Positions 44,348 through 47,975 of a DNA stretch of 64,000 nt are shown here, one piece after another. The notes beneath the pieces were generated by a model. The model saw only the letters and a program-made list of their open reading frames with translations. It ran no database searches and was not told the DNA's origin. Origin of the DNA: a virus (Duplodnaviria; Caudoviricetes). Position numbers and translations under genes: made by a program. Where the stretch lies: positions 128,001 through 192,000 of IMG/VR virus record IMGVR_UViG_3300028591_000073; one strand, given 5' to 3'. How positions within the stretch are numbered: the stretch's first letter is position 1; each line of letters starts with the position of its first letter.

Positions 44348-44450
44348 ATGAAACATCTTAGATGAGAATTATGGCGGGAGTATATGATTTCATTTCAAAT
44401 TATGAGTTTGACGAAGTAACTCCAGCGTCTGCATCATCATAATGTTTCAT
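44348..44450 (-). ncRNA. Y-RNA-like RNA Y1
   Basis: Closing stem, TGATGCAG-acgctgga-GTTACTTC...ACTCC...TTCTCA. Confidence 0.75.
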
Positions 44451-44461
44451 AACAACGAGAA

Positions 44462-44590
44462 GGATTGGTGAGAGTCACGTGTTCAGGTGGGGTGGCTTTA
44501 ATCCCCGAGGTCCGTCCAACATTCGGGCACAATGCCGAGATGCCGGAAATAGCAAAGCTGAAGTAACTGAACACCTGCATCACCAAATCC
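44462..44590 (-). ncRNA. Y-RNA-like RNA Y2
   Basis: TGATGCAG-gtgttca-GTTACTTC...ctgaacac...CTCTCA. Confidence 0.8.
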
Positions 44591-44605
44591 AATAATTCAT
44601 TTCAA

Positions 44606-44732
44606 ATGTTGTGAGAATAATCAACAGAGTATTGTGCGTACGAGTTGTATTAGCTGCAAAATGCTGCTCTCGGTACATGGTATCGATATACGATTGATCT
44701 TTGAAGTAACTCGTGTTTCCGCATCACAACAT
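44606..44732 (-). ncRNA. Y-RNA-like RNA Y3
   Basis: TGATGCGG-aaacacga-GTTACTTC...actctgtt...TTCTCA. Confidence 0.8.
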
Positions 44733-44743
44733 ATTTATTTTTG

Positions 44744-44836
44744 TTAAAGGCGAGAATAACAATCAGAGTTCTGAATAATATCAGCATAAACATTGAATAG
44801 TTTAAGGAGTAACTCTAATTACTGCATCGCATCTAA
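44744..44836 (-). ncRNA. Y-RNA-like RNA Y4
   Basis: CGATGCAG-taattaga-GTTACTCC...actctgatt...TTCTCG (compensatory C-G replaces U-A). Confidence 0.75.
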
Positions 44837-44857
44837 TCACTGGTATTTATTTGTTAA

Positions 44858-45385
44858 TTATTCTTCCTTTTTATGAAAGAATGCTTTAATGTCATCATCC
44901 GTGTAGATTTTACCAAAACCTTTTTCAATCCAGTAAAGGAGTTTCTGAATGTCAGAATTCTCCTTGGATTCAGGTTCAGAAATGTAACTTGTTAAACCAA
45001 ATGGGTCGATTTCAATCTTGAACATTCTCACAGATGCTTCTATATCATCCTTGATATCTTCATATTCAATATCTTTCAGGCATTCGATATGGAGTATCCC
45101 GGTGTCGTAGATGATAAACTCAAGATACAGGTCACATTCAGGGAGGTAGTATCTTAATCCTTTTCCAAGAGGAGATTTGTCACCGTCATACATGTGTCGT
45201 TCTACAAGATACCTGGCTTCAGACTTAATTTCCATCATACGTCTGAACATCATTGCATCATGATATGCACTGAGACAGAGCTGAGAAGTCCCAATGAACT
45301 TCTCAAGCTCCACGAGTGTACAATAATAATTTAATTTATCATCAACATCCAACTTTGTCAATTTGATAGCAGTAACGTTTTCCAT
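44858..45385 (-). CDS. Hypothetical protein inside the Ro60/Y-RNA locus
   Basis: 175 aa, GAGGGTG RBS, 12 bp after the TROVE stop. Confidence 0.7.
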   Translation of the reverse strand: MENVTAIKLTKLDVDDKLNYYCTLVELEKFIGTSQLCLSAYHDAMMFRRMMEIKSEARYLVERHMYDGDKSPLGKGLRYYLPECDLYLEFIIYDTGILHIECLKDIEYEDIKDDIEASVRMFKIEIDPFGLTSYISEPESKENSDIQKLLYWIEKGFGKIYTDDDIKAFFHKKEE

Positions 45386-45397
45386 ATGAATGCACCC

Positions 45398-47038
45398 TCA
45401 CTTTTTCTGCTCAAGTTCATCCCAGATATGGATATATCGTTCCATGAATTGTGTCTCTTTACCTGTCCATCCACTCAGGAATGCACAACGGTAAGCCATT
45501 TCAGGAACCAATACATTGTCATATCCAGCTGTCTGAATGGAAAAGAAGTTTACCTTTGGATTTACTTCTCGACGATATTTCTCAAGTGCTTGATATACAT
45601 TCATATTCAAACTATGTCTGCTGATACCACCATATGCCCAAGGATGAAGACGTCGTTCAAGAGTCAAGTGTCCAACTTGTAAGTCAGAATAGATGATAAT
45701 GTTATCATACTTGATTTTCTTATTCAGAATCTCTTGGAAGAATTCATCCACACCAGGTTCTGTAGAACTACCAACATCTGTGTATTGACCACCATTGATT
45801 TTGTTTGCTTGGGTCAATGCACCATTTCGTTTGGATACTTCAAACCATTTACATGTCGTACCAAACTTGACGATTTGTGCTTCTTCGGAACACATACCAG
45901 CAATGACTGCACTCAAGTTATCAATCTCAGCAATTTGAGTAGTACCGTATTCTGATGTGAAGGCATTCCATGCAGAACCACTGTTATCGGATAAGATAAC
46001 AGTCTTACCAGGAAGCTTGGGCATTTCTTTAATAGAGATATCAATACATTCTTCGAGTGCATCTAATACCCAACCCTTATAATTGATTTCTGCATTCTCC
46101 AACTGCTTGTATGCAGCATAATATCTGTATGGGAACTGCTTACCGGTTTTAACACCTTTCTTCAATCTCAGCAGATATGCTCTACATAAAGCATCATAGG
46201 TTACTTCAGAAAAGAAGTTGCGGATATTACGGAGAAGAGCCATATGTCCAAGTGAAGTTGTTTTGTAGATTTCTTCCCATGACATACCAGCACTTCTCTT
46301 CTGTTCCCATGTCACTTCATTATCTTCTGCTTCGATCGTACCAGTCTTCATGAGTTCATCAAGAACGTCGGAATGTGCATGGGTGAGACGAACGGCATTA
46401 ATCATACCGATTTCTGCGTTCTTATATTTATTAACGTCAAATCTTGTTAAATCACTGAGCTTTGATGCAAGTGAACGTTTCAAAATAGACGGAATCTTAT
46501 TCTTATTACCATCATTCAACCAAAGGTAGTATGCCAGCTGAGACATAGGCTCATCTGGACGTGCAAGTACTTTTTTCTGATATTCTGCAAACTTACCAGG
46601 ATTTGCTTTTGTCCATTCCTGACGTTTTGGATGAATGGATGCACGAACCATGATAATCTGTGGATTCAATCGCATGTAATAATCATGACGAAGTGTAACC
46701 GCCATTTTCAATGTTTCTTCGAAATCATAATCCAATGCAGCATCGATGGCTTCTTCAAATACTTCAGTAGTTGTTTTACCATCAAACTCTTTGAAGAGTC
46801 TGTCGTTGCCGAGTGTATCTGTTGTACCATACCAGCTGGTATCGACACCAAATTTACCATCCTTAATGTTAGAACGATAAAAAGATGCTTCACCAAAGAA
46901 TGAAGATGCAGCAATCATTGTCAATCTCATTAATGGATTGATAGTGAAGGATTCACCACCTTCGAAATTGATAACTGTGTTTGCATGGTATTTGTTGTAC
47001 TCTTTGAGATTCTTAATCTCTCTGCTTAATCTGCTCAT
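45398..47038 (-). CDS. rsr: Ro60/TROVE-domain RNA-binding protein (Rsr-like) with C-terminal vWA domain
   Basis: NFEGG..F start, FFGE..FY, RPDE, KYK, ALLRNIRN, QFPYRYYAAY, MIDAS DNSGS, IIYSDLQ, LSGWT; start ATG 47038 after AAGGAGG. Confidence 0.92.
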   Translation of the reverse strand: MSRLSREIKNLKEYNKYHANTVINFEGGESFTINPLMRLTMIAASSFFGEASFYRSNIKDGKFGVDTSWYGTTDTLGNDRLFKEFDGKTTTEVFEEAIDAALDYDFEETLKMAVTLRHDYYMRLNPQIIMVRASIHPKRQEWTKANPGKFAEYQKKVLARPDEPMSQLAYYLWLNDGNKNKIPSILKRSLASKLSDLTRFDVNKYKNAEIGMINAVRLTHAHSDVLDELMKTGTIEAEDNEVTWEQKRSAGMSWEEIYKTTSLGHMALLRNIRNFFSEVTYDALCRAYLLRLKKGVKTGKQFPYRYYAAYKQLENAEINYKGWVLDALEECIDISIKEMPKLPGKTVILSDNSGSAWNAFTSEYGTTQIAEIDNLSAVIAGMCSEEAQIVKFGTTCKWFEVSKRNGALTQANKINGGQYTDVGSSTEPGVDEFFQEILNKKIKYDNIIIYSDLQVGHLTLERRLHPWAYGGISRHSLNMNVYQALEKYRREVNPKVNFFSIQTAGYDNVLVPEMAYRCAFLSGWTGKETQFMERYIHIWDELEQKK

Positions 47039-47082
47039 ACAATTTTCCTCCTTCGTTGTTAAAAAAGAAATTGATTCATATA

Positions 47083-47263
47083 AATTTAGATTGCTTGAGA
47101 ATATCAGATACGGGGTATCGGTTTTGAGTAAGTCATAACCGATAAAACACTGTGAAAGGATGTCGTTCCAATGCGCATGATCGACAAATCTATTGAGATA
47201 AAATCTTAACAAAAATATGTTCTTTATGAAGTAACCGTATCGCTGCATCAAGCAACCTAAATT
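47083..47263 (-). ncRNA. Y-RNA-like RNA Y5 (longest internal domain)
   Basis: ~16-bp closing stem, TGATGCAG-cgatacg-GTTACTTC...ccgtatc...TTCTCA. Confidence 0.8.
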
Positions 47264-47270
47264 ACTGGTG

Positions 47271-47405
47271 GTAGACTGAGTATATCAAAAACAGATTAAA
47301 TGCCCGCTTAATTGTTATACAGGTATCGTGGTCGCAACCCTGTTTCGAATAACTTGATAGGTTATTCTGATCTGTAGAAGTAACTGTTTTTCTGCTTCAG
47401 TCTAC
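47271..47405 (-). ncRNA. Y-RNA-like RNA Y6
   Basis: GTAGACTGA/TCAGTCTAC, TGAAGCAG-aaaaaca-GTTACTTC...ctgtttt...ACTCA. Confidence 0.8.
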
Positions 47406-47481
47406 TGGTCGAATGCCCCAGAATTGAACTGGGAGTCCCCGAGACCCAAACTCGGTGCGATAACCATTACGCTAGCACTCG
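47406..47481 (-). tRNA. tRNA-Pro(UGG)
   Basis: CGAGTGC/GCATTCG, loop TTTGGGT, T-loop TTCAATT, ACCA. Confidence 0.9.
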
Positions 47482-47486
47482 AAAAT

Positions 47487-47625
47487 GTCTATGAGAGTAT
47501 TTGACAGAGTATAATACGTGCTCTACCGACTGAGCTAATGTCACCATCTGATGGTGACATACTGGGCTCGAACCAGTGACTACGCCGTTAACATCGGAAG
47601 TAACTCTGTCAGCCGCATCATAGAC
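47487..47625 (-). ncRNA. Y-RNA-like RNA Y7, YrlA-type with permuted tRNA-like domain
   Basis: Scaffold plus T-arm ACTGGTTCGAGCCCAGT, loop-closed acceptor ATGTCACCA...TGGTGACAT, then D-arm TAGCTCAGTCGGTAGAGC. Confidence 0.88.
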
Positions 47626-47629
47626 TAAA

Positions 47630-47711
47630 TGCCCATAGAGGGAGTCGAACCCTCAAGCCTTTCGGCACAGGTACTTGAAGCCTGTGTGTATGCCAATTTC
47701 ACCATATGGGC
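47630..47711 (-). tRNA. tRNA-Leu(CAA)
   Basis: GCCCATA/TATGGGC, loop TTCAAGT, variable arm GCCGAAAGGC, TTCGACT; CCA not encoded. Confidence 0.88.
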
Positions 47712-47715
47712 AACA

Positions 47716-47850
47716 AACATTTGTGAGGGTATAAACCAGAGAAATGCATTTCCATTTCTGCCAATGATACCAAAATGATACCATATAGGATTCGAACCTA
47801 TAGATCTTATTATTTTAAGAAGTAACTCTGATTGCTGCTTCACAAACGTT
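47716..47850 (-). ncRNA. Y-RNA-like RNA Y8, YrlA-type
   Basis: Scaffold plus T-arm ATAGGTTCGAATCCTAT preceding the D-like arm TGGCAGAAATGGAAATGC. Confidence 0.82.
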
Positions 47851-47851
47851 G

Positions 47852-47975
47852 GTGCATTTGTGAGAATGTTTGTTAGAGCATTGCACAACCAAATATGCAT
47901 TAACTAATGAAAAATCACAATTAATTTCGGATTCGAACCAAAGAAGTATCTCTAACATCTGCTTCACAAATGTAT
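47852..47975 (-). ncRNA. Y-RNA-like RNA Y9, YrlA-type
   Basis: Scaffold (GATACTTC variant) plus GGTTCGAATCC preceding the D-like arm GCATATTTGGTTGTGC. Confidence 0.78.

What the first reader, a model, noticed from the sequence alone, without database searches (positions are those of the whole stretch)
44348..47975. Phage Ro60 gene embedded in an array of nine modular Y-like RNAs: one scaffold, nine different cargo domains
Seen: four ncRNA units lie downstream and five upstream of the TROVE/Ro60 gene. All read stem1-[UC]GA[UA]GC[AG]G-N7/8-G[UA]UACU[UC]C-(variable ~30-115 nt)-stem2'-N4/6-CUC[AG]-stem1'. Stem sequences differ between copies but stay paired (Y2 GUGUUCAG/CUGAACAC, Y5 GAUACGG/CCGUAUC, Y6 AAAACAG/CUGUUUU, Y7 UGACAGAGU/ACUCUGUCA, Y9 UGUUAGAG/CUCUAACA). 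G-U wobbles in Y4 and Y8 support the minus strand. Established: bacterial Ro60 (Rsr) binds adjacent-encoded Y RNAs through a terminal stem, while the other end recruits effectors such as PNPase in Deinococcus; loci usually have only one or a few Y RNAs. Inference: this phage encodes a repertoire of interchangeable RNA adaptors that let one Ro60 ring engage or decoy many different host proteins. I do not know of a described system with this copy number and cargo diversity.
Basis: partly seen in the sequence, partly recalled or inferred. Interest (0 to 1): 0.95.

Follow-up and report, generated by a model that had tools for sequence, protein, structure and literature searches.

The report
Nine Y-like RNAs around phage Ro60
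A 294-kb gut or rumen phage surrounds its Ro60 ring-protein gene with nine small RNA genes that share one conserved "handle" and carry different inserts, several of them imitations of tRNA parts; this is a much-expanded, apparently undescribed form of the known Ro60/Y-RNA particle, and its purpose is untested.

Summary
Exactly nine units lie on the minus strand, five upstream and four downstream of a 546-aa Ro60 gene. All share stem1, a WGCRG loop, stem2 and GUUACUUC, then a 32-121 nt insert, stem2', AUAYUC and stem1'. No convincing copy lies elsewhere in the 294-kb phage.

The protein is a true Ro60: its 13 best fold matches are all Ro60 structures. The handle is a distant relative of the Ro60-binding module of YrlA. 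Rfam YrlA scores are below threshold (27.7 bits for Y7, cut-off 69).

In about 150 related loci the handle lies almost always on the Ro60 strand. Clostridial chromosomes carry 1-2 copies and phages 1-7, so nine is the most seen here but not unique in kind.

Y7 is a permuted tRNA mimic with good covariation support. Y8 and Y9 are degenerate versions. Y1 displays a methionine-type anticodon loop. Y2-Y6 are idiosyncratic. Anticodon-arm-like hairpins are about 20-fold enriched in the family's inserts.

Binding to Ro60, discrete transcripts and any adaptor or decoy role are untested. I found no published description. This scan has noted the same kind of system many times on other DNA.

The parts
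47855..47972 (-). Y9: handle plus T-arm-like hairpin (UUUGG-UUCGAAU-CCGAA), a long hairpin and a small GG-loop hairpin; a degenerate YrlA-type unit. It begins about 7 nt after a TATAAT box.
   Evidence: CM R1 69 bits; fold z = -4.1; sequence read
47716..47850 (-). Y8: handle plus small hairpin, T arm (GGUUCGAAUCC), 8-bp acceptor-like hairpin and a further hairpin. Stem1 is nearly identical to that of Y9, which suggests a recent tandem duplicate.
   Evidence: R1 64.4 bits; fold z = -3.6
47629..47712 (-). tRNA-Leu(CAA), 3 nt from Y8 and 3 nt from Y7
   Evidence: ARAGORN and Rfam tRNA
47487..47625 (-). Y7: handle plus complete permuted tRNA mimic (small hairpin, T arm, 10-bp closed acceptor-like stem, D arm)
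   Evidence: R1 63.5 bits; Rfam YrlA, full-length alignment, 27.7 bits, below the cut-off of 69; covariation of this class in A5
47406..47481 (-). tRNA-Pro(UGG), 5 nt after Y7 and abutting Y6
47271..47405 (-). Y6: handle plus a 7-bp hairpin with 7-nt loop CUAUCAA (shaped like an anticodon arm, not a natural anticodon) and two further hairpins
   Evidence: R1 56.1 bits
47083..47263 (-). Y5: handle plus a 121-nt insert of several hairpins. It ends about 45 nt before the Ro60 start codon, so it lies in the Ro60 leader.
   Evidence: R1 51.1 bits although not used to build the model
45398..47038 (-). Ro60 / TROVE + vWA protein, 546 aa, with a MIDAS-type DNSGS motif
   Evidence: PHROG 850 E = 6e-47; PDB 9KOP/9L5Y E = 1e-10, profile 9e-14; AF2 pLDDT 79.6; Foldseek top 13 hits are all Ro60
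44858..45385 (-). 175-aa ORF between Ro60 and Y4. No family match; absent from all 82 related loci.
44746..44834 (-). Y4: handle plus a 40-nt insert with two small hairpins
   Evidence: R1 53.8 bits; fold
44606..44732 (-). Y3: handle (stem2 with one bulge) plus a roughly 70-nt insert. It shares UAUAUCGAU..CAUG with L089:6150-6232.
   Evidence: R1 57.6 bits; fold z only -1.1
44462..44590 (-). Y2: handle plus a G+C-rich 80-nt insert. It shares CCGAAYGUUGGAC and AAGCCACCC with L089:6247-6383.
   Evidence: R1 30 bits, not in the training set; fold z = -3.4
44350..44448 (-). Y1: handle plus an anticodon-arm mimic, UCAAA-CUCAUAA-UUUGA (5-bp stem, methionine-type loop)
   Evidence: R1 51.7 bits. The counterpart L089:6406-6492 has CUGUUAA at the same place.
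43390..44265 (-). Downstream end of the RNA cluster: tRNA-Leu(UAG) 44265-44181, tRNA-Gly(UCC) 44089-44016, a conserved structured non-coding stretch, and tRNA-Gln(UUG) 43463-43390
48014..48041 (-). Terminator-like hairpin with a T run that closes the upstream gene. It marks the likely start of the Y9-to-tRNA transcription unit.

Best explanation
The locus is a phage Ro60 ribonucleoprotein module. One Ro60 (TROVE + vWA) gene sits inside a small-RNA/tRNA operon that encodes nine Y RNAs of the YrlA/YrlB kind. Each RNA has two parts. The first is a conserved handle: a closing stem ending in UGA/UCA, an asymmetric internal loop (5' WGCRG, 3' nnAUAYUC), a 7-9 bp second stem, and an invariant single-stranded GUUACUUC. 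The second is a distal insert that differs between copies. Inferred by analogy with Rsr-YrlA, Rsr-Yrn1-PNPase and phiLo Ro60-Yrl: the handle docks on the Ro60 ring, and the insert decides what else the particle touches or whether the ring's cavity is open. Several inserts are tRNA parts: a whole permuted tRNA body in Y7, T-arm sets in Y8 and Y9, and a methionine-type anticodon arm in Y1. The likeliest partners are therefore proteins that read tRNA shape, such as processing, modifying, repair or cleaving enzymes. The spacers to the interleaved tRNAs are only 0-7 nt. This suggests one precursor cut by the tRNA-processing enzymes, as for Yrn2-tRNA-Yrn1 in Deinococcus. Shown here: sequence, structure and covariation of the handle and of the tRNA-like class, strand specificity, linkage to Ro60, and Ro60 identity. 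Inferred: transcription, processing, Ro60 binding and function.
For: Nine units, none convincing elsewhere in the genome. Handle pairing with compensatory changes: 86% of cells paired against 57% in shuffles and 35-47% when slid; 20 of 22 pairs change on both sides. Rfam YrlA aligns Y7 end to end and places AUGC, YUAY and the 3' A-rich loop on the window's handle. YrlA also scores 32-37 bits on relatives' units, and 43-49 bits on the single units upstream of chromosomal rsr in Acetatifactor muris and a Clostridiaceae isolate. My handle model hits those same units. All 170 model hits in 73 phage loci lie on the Ro60 strand, as do 78 of 82 in genome-bin loci. Starting from the motif instead: 20 IMG/VR loci have a model hit, and 19 of them lie on contigs with Ro60. 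The 59 motif-only loci have neither a model hit nor Ro60. Ro60 fold. tRNA-like class: T arm 100% paired, and all 8 acceptor-like pairs show compensatory changes. No protein gene other than Ro60 is conserved nearby, so the RNAs are its constant companions. Published precedent: YrlA within 4 kb of Ro60 on the same strand, and a polycistronic Yrn2-tRNA-Yrn1 (PMC4201824); phiLo Ro60 binds two phage Yrl RNAs and forms a complex with host PNPase (PMC12135203).
Against: No unit reaches Rfam's YrlA cut-off. There are no expression or binding data. Part of the handle covariation is circular, because I chose unit ends and training units by pairing; the strand bias, E-values and slide controls do not share this weakness. 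Y3 folds no better than shuffles (z = -1.1) and Y2 scores only 30 bits. Most inserts (Y1-Y6, Y9) have no detectable sequence relatives in other loci, so their individual functions are unsupported. The phage has no RtcB or Rnl-type RNA ligase, which are the usual companions of bacterial rsr (the Rnl1 search also failed on its control genomes).
Confidence: 0.8

Rival explanations
1. Counter-defence decoys. The tRNA-part inserts, especially the bare anticodon arms, are baits or sponges for host tRNA-cleaving defence nucleases or other anticodon readers. Ro60 stabilises them or hands bound or cleaved RNAs to an exonuclease. This is a specific form of the best explanation.
For: 33 of 150 family units carry a hairpin with a stem of at least 4 bp (mostly 5) and a 7-nt loop CU-NNN-A[AC]; shuffles give 1.6 (maximum 7). 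CUnnnAA is the commonest 7-nt-loop class. The loops match natural anticodon loops (UUU, GUU, UGA, GCU, UAA, GUA, CAU). Counterpart units keep the arm and vary the triplet or covary the stem: Y1 has CUCAUAA where L089 has CUGUUAA, and L017, L021 and L022 differ likewise. Y1's CAU is not among the phage's own five tRNAs. A Ro60-like protein of phage Bas63 counters the Ppl defence system (PMC11482910).
Against: In this window only Y1 has a faithful anticodon loop. Y6's triplet AUC is not a natural anticodon, and Y7's small hairpin sits where YrlA has its variable arm. No nuclease, host or target is identified. The triplets also mirror those of ordinary phage tRNAs in the relatives. No experiment bears on it.
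Confidence: 0.25
2. Cis-acting elements. The units are processing spacers of the tRNA operon, or leader and trailer structures that control Ro60 expression (Y5 lies in the Ro60 leader), and are not free-standing Ro60-partner RNAs.
For: Spacers to the tRNAs are 0-7 nt. Y5 ends about 45 nt before the Ro60 start codon. In relatives, some handles enclose sequences that ARAGORN and Rfam call tRNAs.
Against: The handle resembles the YrlA Ro60-binding module. Tandem arrays occur with no tRNA between the units (Y1-Y4; L022 has seven in a row), and one lies about 7.7 kb from Ro60 (L171). Most phage tRNA clusters have no such elements. Eight of the nine units cannot be Ro60 leaders.
Confidence: 0.08
3. 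Mostly relics. One or a few units (for example Y7) are functional Y RNAs, and the rest are decaying tandem duplicates whose inserts drift.
For: Y8 and Y9 share stem1 and look like recent duplicates. Inserts diverge fast and lack relatives. Y2 and Y3 are the weakest units.
Against: All nine keep the invariant handle letters and both stems while the stems differ in sequence, which points to selection on each copy. Arrays of 4-7 recur across phages whose Ro60 is only 43-57% identical. Counterparts in L089 keep short conserved islands inside the inserts.
Confidence: 0.1

Closest known systems
Bacterial Rsr (Ro60) with YrlA/YrlB Y RNAs (Salmonella, Mycobacterium; Rfam RF02553; Chen et al. 2014, PMC4201824)
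   Same: RNA genes lie within 4 kb of Ro60 on the same strand. The 5'/3' closing stem carries the presumed Ro60 site. A YUAY follows the second stem. The tRNA-like domain has the order (V)-T-acceptor-like-D (Y7). Extra Y RNAs lack a full tRNA-like domain, as YrlB does.
   Different: Nine copies instead of about two. All are below the Rfam cut-off. The handle reads YGA-WGCRG, not GNCGAAN0-1G. GUUACUUC is invariant even in units with no tRNA-like body. Inserts include bare anticodon-arm mimics. There is no RtcB/RtcA next door.
Deinococcus radiodurans Rsr with Yrn1/Yrn2 and PNPase (RYPER)
   Same: Y RNAs are co-transcribed with a tRNA as one precursor. The distal module tethers Ro60 to another protein.
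   Different: The partner here is unknown, and the phage has many more and more varied RNAs.
Thermus phage phiLo Ro60 with Yrl1/Yrl2 (PDB 9KOP, 9L5Y; PMC12135203)
   Same: It is the closest solved protein (E = 1e-10; TM 0.64-0.74). It is a phage-encoded Ro60 with phage-encoded Y-like RNAs upstream of the gene.
   Different: phiLo has two RNAs, defined by a CGAA bulge, with no tRNA parts reported. Protein identity is only about 20%.
Ro60-like gp130 of Escherichia phage Bas63 (PhageMaP preprint, PMC11482910)
   Same: A phage Ro60-like gene next to a tRNA cluster; the authors suggest that some of the 'tRNAs' are Y RNAs.
   Different: That work gives a phenotype (it counters the Ppl defence system) but no RNA analysis. 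Relatedness to this protein was not tested here.
Metazoan Y RNA families (2-4 in vertebrates; the many stem-bulge RNAs of nematodes) - from my own knowledge, not tested here
   Same: Several paralogous RNAs share a Ro60-binding stem and differ in the distal loop.
   Different: No sequence relation. The genes are dispersed rather than forming one operon around the Ro60 gene, and the loops are not tRNA parts.

Membership tests
Ro60 / TROVE protein | Ring of HEAT-like helical repeats (TROVE) followed by a vWA domain | tested here: met
   The AF2 model (pLDDT 79.6) aligns over its full length with 13 Ro60 structures (9KOP 1.8e-17, 1YVP, 2I91, 2NVO, human 9NEN); the next hits are vWA domains. PHROG 850, residues 14-531, E = 6e-47.
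Ro60 / TROVE protein | Pfam TROVE (PF05731) above the curated cut-off | tested here: inconclusive
   21.2 bits against a cut-off of 23 for the window's protein. Many homologues at 54-76% identity carry a precomputed PF05731 hit.
Ro60 / TROVE protein | MIDAS motif DxSxS in the vWA domain | tested here: met
   The sequence SDNSGS is present. D351, S353 and S355 are invariant in 30 homologues.
YrlA (Rfam RF02553) | Score at or above Rfam's gathering cut-off (69 bits) | tested here: not met
   Y7 scores 27.7 bits and the other eight give no hit. Relatives score 32-37 bits, and chromosomal Clostridia units 43-49 bits.
YrlA (Chen et al. 2014 criteria) | Encoded within 4 kb of a Ro60 gene, on the same strand | tested here: met
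   All nine lie within 2.7 kb of the gene, on the minus strand like Ro60.
YrlA (Chen et al. 2014 criteria) | 5' motif GNCGAAN0-1G | tested here: inconclusive
   The window has UGAAGCAG or UGAUGCRG. Relatives often have CGAAGCGG, which contains CGAAG. The C/U covaries with its partner (CGA/UCG against UGA/UCA).
YrlA (Chen et al. 2014 criteria) | tRNA-like domain: T arm, closed acceptor-like stem, D arm, preceded by YUAY | tested here: met
   Met for Y7 only. Y8 and Y9 have the T arm and acceptor-like stem but no conserved D arm. Y1-Y6 lack the domain and are YrlB-like at most. YUAY (UUAC or AUAC) is present in all nine.
Y RNA (functional definition) | Stable small RNA bound by Ro60 in vivo | not testable with these tools
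   Needs RNA sequencing and immunoprecipitation or gel-shift assays.

The most novel reading that the evidence does not exclude
Phage Ro60 with its handle RNAs is a display platform. By swapping the insert behind one constant handle, the phage presents whole tRNA bodies, T arms or bare anticodon arms with changeable triplets. These would soak up, mislead or redirect host factors that read tRNA, above all tRNA-cleaving defence nucleases. Array size would then reflect how many such threats the phage meets.
Probability: 0.25. Interest if true: 0.85.

Novelty: new variant of a known kind. Interest (0 to 1): 0.64.

Why it matters
Ro60 and Y RNAs are conserved from bacteria to humans, yet what the variable part of a Y RNA is for is settled in very few cases. 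Here a phage carries one Ro60 gene, nine handles and nine different inserts, and relatives reshuffle the inserts. Several inserts are recognisable tRNA parts, so candidate partners can be named and tested. If the inserts act as baits for tRNA-directed host factors, this would add an RNA-based layer to phage counter-defence. It would also explain why these phages hold more Y-like RNA genes than tRNA genes (nine against five here). A practical point: some handle-embedded units in relatives are called as tRNAs by ARAGORN and Rfam, so phage tRNA counts are inflated.

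Tried and rejected
- blastn of the locus against GenBank phages gave no match.
- The search for related loci with the single protein in viral contigs gave nothing. The alignment-based scan worked. The metagenome scan gave two loci; L089, at 75% identity, was useful.
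Fine-scale comparison of inserts therefore rests on L089 alone.
- A tenth model hit at window 23387-23501 (+, 27.4 bits) is the start of an ORF and lacks stem2, so I rejected it as chance. A hit at genome 112564-112658 (31.6 bits) has GCUACUUG in place of GUUACUUC inside GAT-repeat sequence; it is probably chance and was not pursued.
- A link to RNA repair was not found: no RtcB or Rnl2 in the phage. The Rnl1 search is uninformative because it also failed on its control genomes.
- A conserved protein partner was not found. The MYG1-like exonuclease, the ligase, the 175-aa ORF and the others are absent from, or rare in, 82 related loci.
- Sequence relatives of the individual inserts were not found, apart from T and D arms.
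- My first rule-based delimitation of units picked wrong 3' ends for several of them. I replaced it with the covariance model.

Full report
**What is there.** The window is bases 128001-192000 of a 294,548-bp IMG/VR phage record that CheckV rates complete. All copies are on the minus strand between 44413 and 47962, and none is expected by chance.

Read on the minus strand, each copy has the same layout:
- a closing stem (stem1) ending in UGA;
- a 5-6 nt loop, WGCRG(N);
- a 7-9 bp stem2;
- an almost invariant GUUACUUC (GAUACUUC in Y9, GUUACUCC in Y4);
- an insert of 32-121 nt;
- the 3' strand of stem2;
- a 6-8 nt loop ending in AUAYUC;
- UCA and the 3' strand of stem1.

Stem sequences differ between copies but stay paired. 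G-U pairs make the fold specific to the minus strand. Seven of the eight units folded do so better than every shuffle (z from -3.0 to -4.1); Y3 does not (z = -1.1).

**Gene map.** The Ro60 ORF as listed starts at a TTG inside Y5. The real start is ATG 47038, behind a GGAGG site, which gives 546 aa. The order on the minus strand is:
- terminator-like hairpin (48041-48014);
- Y9, Y8, tRNA-Leu(CAA), Y7, tRNA-Pro(UGG), Y6, Y5;
- Ro60;
- a 175-aa ORF of unknown function;
- Y4, Y3, Y2, Y1;
- tRNA-Leu(UAG), tRNA-Gly(UCC), a conserved non-coding stretch, tRNA-Gln(UUG).

Spacers in the upstream half are 0-7 nt, which points to one precursor trimmed by tRNA-processing enzymes (inference). These five tRNAs are the phage's whole tRNA set, so the Y-like genes outnumber the tRNA genes.

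**The protein.** Pfam TROVE is just below its cut-off (21.2 bits against 23). Other evidence is clear:
- PHROG 850 ('RNA-binding protein') matches residues 14-531 at E = 6e-47.
- The closest solved sequence is the Ro60 of Thermus phage phiLo (E = 1e-10; 9e-14 with a profile).
- An AlphaFold model (pLDDT 79.6, pTM 0.75) has the 13 Ro60 structures in the PDB as its 13 best Foldseek matches (phage, frog, human, Deinococcus), followed by vWA domains.
- The MIDAS motif DxSxS is invariant in 30 homologues.

**The RNA family.** The protein has at least 2,949 relatives, many on contigs of 200-300 kb. I fetched 80 IMG/VR loci with Ro60 at 43-57% identity. In them the strict motif occurs only on the Ro60 strand.

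I aligned 44 units without reference to structure (A3). The two handle helices pair in 86% of cells, against 57% in column shuffles and 35-47% when the partner strand is slid. Twenty of 22 pairs change on both sides. Caveat: I chose unit ends and training units by pairing, so the 100% pairing of stem1 is partly built in. The strand bias and the model's E-values do not share this weakness.

The covariance model R1 gave these results:
- It finds all nine window units (30-69 bits), including Y5 and Y2, which were not in the training set. With filters off, the next hit in the region scores 14.9 bits.
- In 73 related loci it finds 170 units, every one on the Ro60 strand, 1-7 per locus. L022 has seven in tandem; L011 and L017 have six. 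Nine is thus the most I saw.
- Some arrays lie kilobases from the gene (L171), and L106 and L177, on one 258-kb contig, together hold nine units.

I also ran the test in the other direction. An exact 16-letter form of the motif picks out 83 IMG/VR stretches. Twenty of the 79 new loci have a model hit. Sixteen of those contain Ro60 within the locus, and three more lie on contigs already known to hold it. None of the 59 motif-only loci has a model hit or Ro60.

**Relation to YrlA.** Rfam's YrlA model aligns Y7 from end to end at 27.7 bits, below the cut-off of 69. The alignment places the family's stem1, the AUGC loop, stem2 and CUAc on the window's stem1, UGCGG, stem2 and UUAC. It places T arm, acceptor-like stem and D arm on those of Y7. 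The same sub-threshold match recurs at 32-37 bits on tRNA-like units of six related phage loci.

The Ro60 family also occurs on contigs of Clostridia genomes from rumen and gut: Ruminococcus, Oscillospiraceae, Lachnospiraceae and Acetatifactor. There R1 finds mostly one or two units per locus; 78 of 82 lie on the Ro60 strand. In two isolate genomes the flanks carry chromosomal markers (a T-box leader in Acetatifactor muris DSM 23669, a lysine riboswitch in a Clostridiaceae isolate). In both, the single unit just upstream of rsr scores 43-49 bits with YrlA.

The handle is therefore the Clostridia-lineage form of the YrlA Ro60-binding module. Chromosomes have one or two, and phages have amplified it. 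Chen et al. 2014 (PMC4201824) define YrlA by nearness to Ro60 on the same strand, a GNCGAAN0-1G motif, a YUAY at the start of the V loop, and the T, acceptor-like and D domain. The window meets the first and third criteria for all nine units. It meets the second only in part (YGAWGCRG) and the fourth for Y7 alone.

**The inserts.**
- *Y7.* It belongs to a class of 15 aligned units (A5). In that class the T arm pairs in 100% of cells with three covarying pairs. All eight pairs of the closed acceptor-like stem show compensatory changes, and the D arm is conserved. This is a well-supported permuted tRNA mimic.
- *Y8 and Y9.* They keep a canonical T loop (UUCGAAU) and a long hairpin in the acceptor position, but not the D-arm signature. 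Their stem1 strands are nearly identical, which suggests a recent duplication.
- *Y1.* It carries UCAAA-CUCAUAA-UUUGA, a 5-bp stem with the methionine-type anticodon loop.
- *Y6.* It has a 7-bp stem with the loop CUAUCAA.
- *Y2-Y5.* They are sets of hairpins with no likeness that I could name.

Across 150 family units, 33 carry a hairpin with a stem of at least 4 bp and a loop CU-NNN-A[AC]. Shuffles give 1.6 on average and 7 at most. CUnnnAA is the commonest of all 7-nt loop classes, ahead of T loops. The triplets are mainly UUU, GUU, UGA, UAA, GCU and GUA.

Other relatives enclose a nearly whole, unpermuted tRNA in the handle, in the order D arm, anticodon arm, T arm. ARAGORN and Rfam call some of these tRNAs, for example L011:6668-6739 at 51 bits. 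The family's inserts are thus largely parts of tRNA.

Inserts change fast. Apart from T and D arms, none of the window's inserts has a blastn relative in the other loci. In L089, whose Ro60 is 75% identical and which has six units, the counterparts keep the handle and short islands of the insert: Y2 (CCGAAYGUUGGAC), Y3 (UAUAUCGAU) and Y5 (GACAUCCUUUCA). Y1's counterpart has CUGUUAA where Y1 has CUCAUAA.

**How it probably works.** Bacterial Ro60 binds the Y RNA stem, and the other end tethers PNPase. The phiLo phage Ro60 binds two phage Yrl RNAs and forms a ternary complex with host PNPase (PMC12135203). By that analogy the handle is the Ro60 dock and the insert selects the partner or gates the ring.

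GUUACUUC stays invariant even in units without any tRNA-like body. It therefore belongs to the handle, and is probably a protein contact, not part of the tRNA mimic (inference). No protein gene other than Ro60 is conserved within 5 kb, and the phage has no RtcB or Rnl2. Any partners are therefore likely to be host proteins.

The decoy idea fits the anticodon arms and the report that a Ro60-like protein of phage Bas63 counters the Ppl defence system (PMC11482910). Nothing here tests it, and only one of the nine window units has a faithful anticodon loop.

**What is known.** Full-text searches found four relevant items: YrlA in more than 250 bacteria and 22 phages (PMC4201824); the two Yrl RNAs of phiLo; a note that some jumbo phages encode TROVE proteins with 'a tRNA-like partner' (PMC7824862); and the Bas63 remark. 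I found no description of arrays, of a modular handle with varied inserts, or of anticodon-arm inserts. The Annual Review on bacterial Ro60 was not held.

This scan's own notebook shows that the same kind of system, Ro60-like gene plus 4-11 handle RNAs with anticodon-arm cargo, has been reported many times on other DNA. That includes rumen phages and this same stretch read in another window. I reached the anticodon-arm observation before reading those notes, so they agree with this report but do not support it independently.

**Verdict.** The Y-RNA reading is well supported. The claim of many different partners is plausible but untested. I classify this as a new variant of a known kind.

Noticed in passing
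window 43570-43820 (-), within the 550-nt gap between tRNA-Gly and tRNA-Gln: A non-coding stretch of about 250 nt is conserved in L089:7681-7932 (68% identity). Indels fall in predicted loops, a long-range closing stem is kept, and 10 of 60 predicted pairs show compensatory changes. It has no Rfam match and stop codons in all three frames. It may be an undescribed structured RNA in the tRNA cluster.
   Followed up: partly
window 44266-44349 (-), between Y1 and tRNA-Leu(UAG): An 84-nt spacer with a G+C-rich hairpin (GAGGG-GUCGGCA-CCCUC) enclosed by a long-range GGGCC/GGCCC stem. It is not a handle unit.
   Followed up: no
whole genome G000; window 43390-47712: The 294-kb phage has only five tRNA genes, and all of them lie in the Ro60/Y-RNA cluster.
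   Followed up: yes
L017:1335-1976 and L021:2881-3524: ROOL RNAs (Rfam RF03087, 277-284 bits) lie 1.5-3 kb upstream of Ro60, in the same tRNA/Y-RNA neighbourhoods of two related phages.
   Followed up: no
L011:6668-6739, L032:6701-6773, L040:6745-6817 and 6992-7063, L021:6740-6808, L022:6681-6751: ARAGORN, and for L011 also Rfam, calls tRNAs that lie inside handle units. These are handle-embedded tRNA look-alikes with short acceptor stems, so tRNA counts for these phages are inflated.
   Followed up: partly
window 48382-49278 (-): A 298-aa protein whose N-terminus matches MYG1/UPF0160 exonuclease (Pfam E = 6.5e-16) lies just upstream of the RNA cluster on the same strand. It is absent from the 82 related Ro60 loci.
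   Followed up: partly
window 40826-42745 (-): An NAD-dependent DNA ligase (adenylation, OB, zinc-finger and BRCT domains) lies downstream of the cluster.
   Followed up: no
L010:2893-2965, L040:7167-7256, L034:4818-4888: Related phages carry suppressor-type tRNAs (anticodons UUA and CUA) in the same clusters, which may point to stop-codon reassignment in those phages.
   Followed up: no
G000:C1:112564-112658 (+), outside the window: A weak handle-model hit (31.6 bits) with GAUGCAG...GCUACUUG...UUCUCA inside GAT-repeat sequence. It is probably chance.
   Followed up: partly
L213 (Acetatifactor muris DSM 23669) 3803-3938; L250 3722-3851: In Clostridia isolate genomes, chromosomal rsr has a single YrlA-like RNA directly upstream that Rfam misses (43-49 bits against a cut-off of 69). 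The Rfam family therefore under-covers Clostridia.
   Followed up: partly
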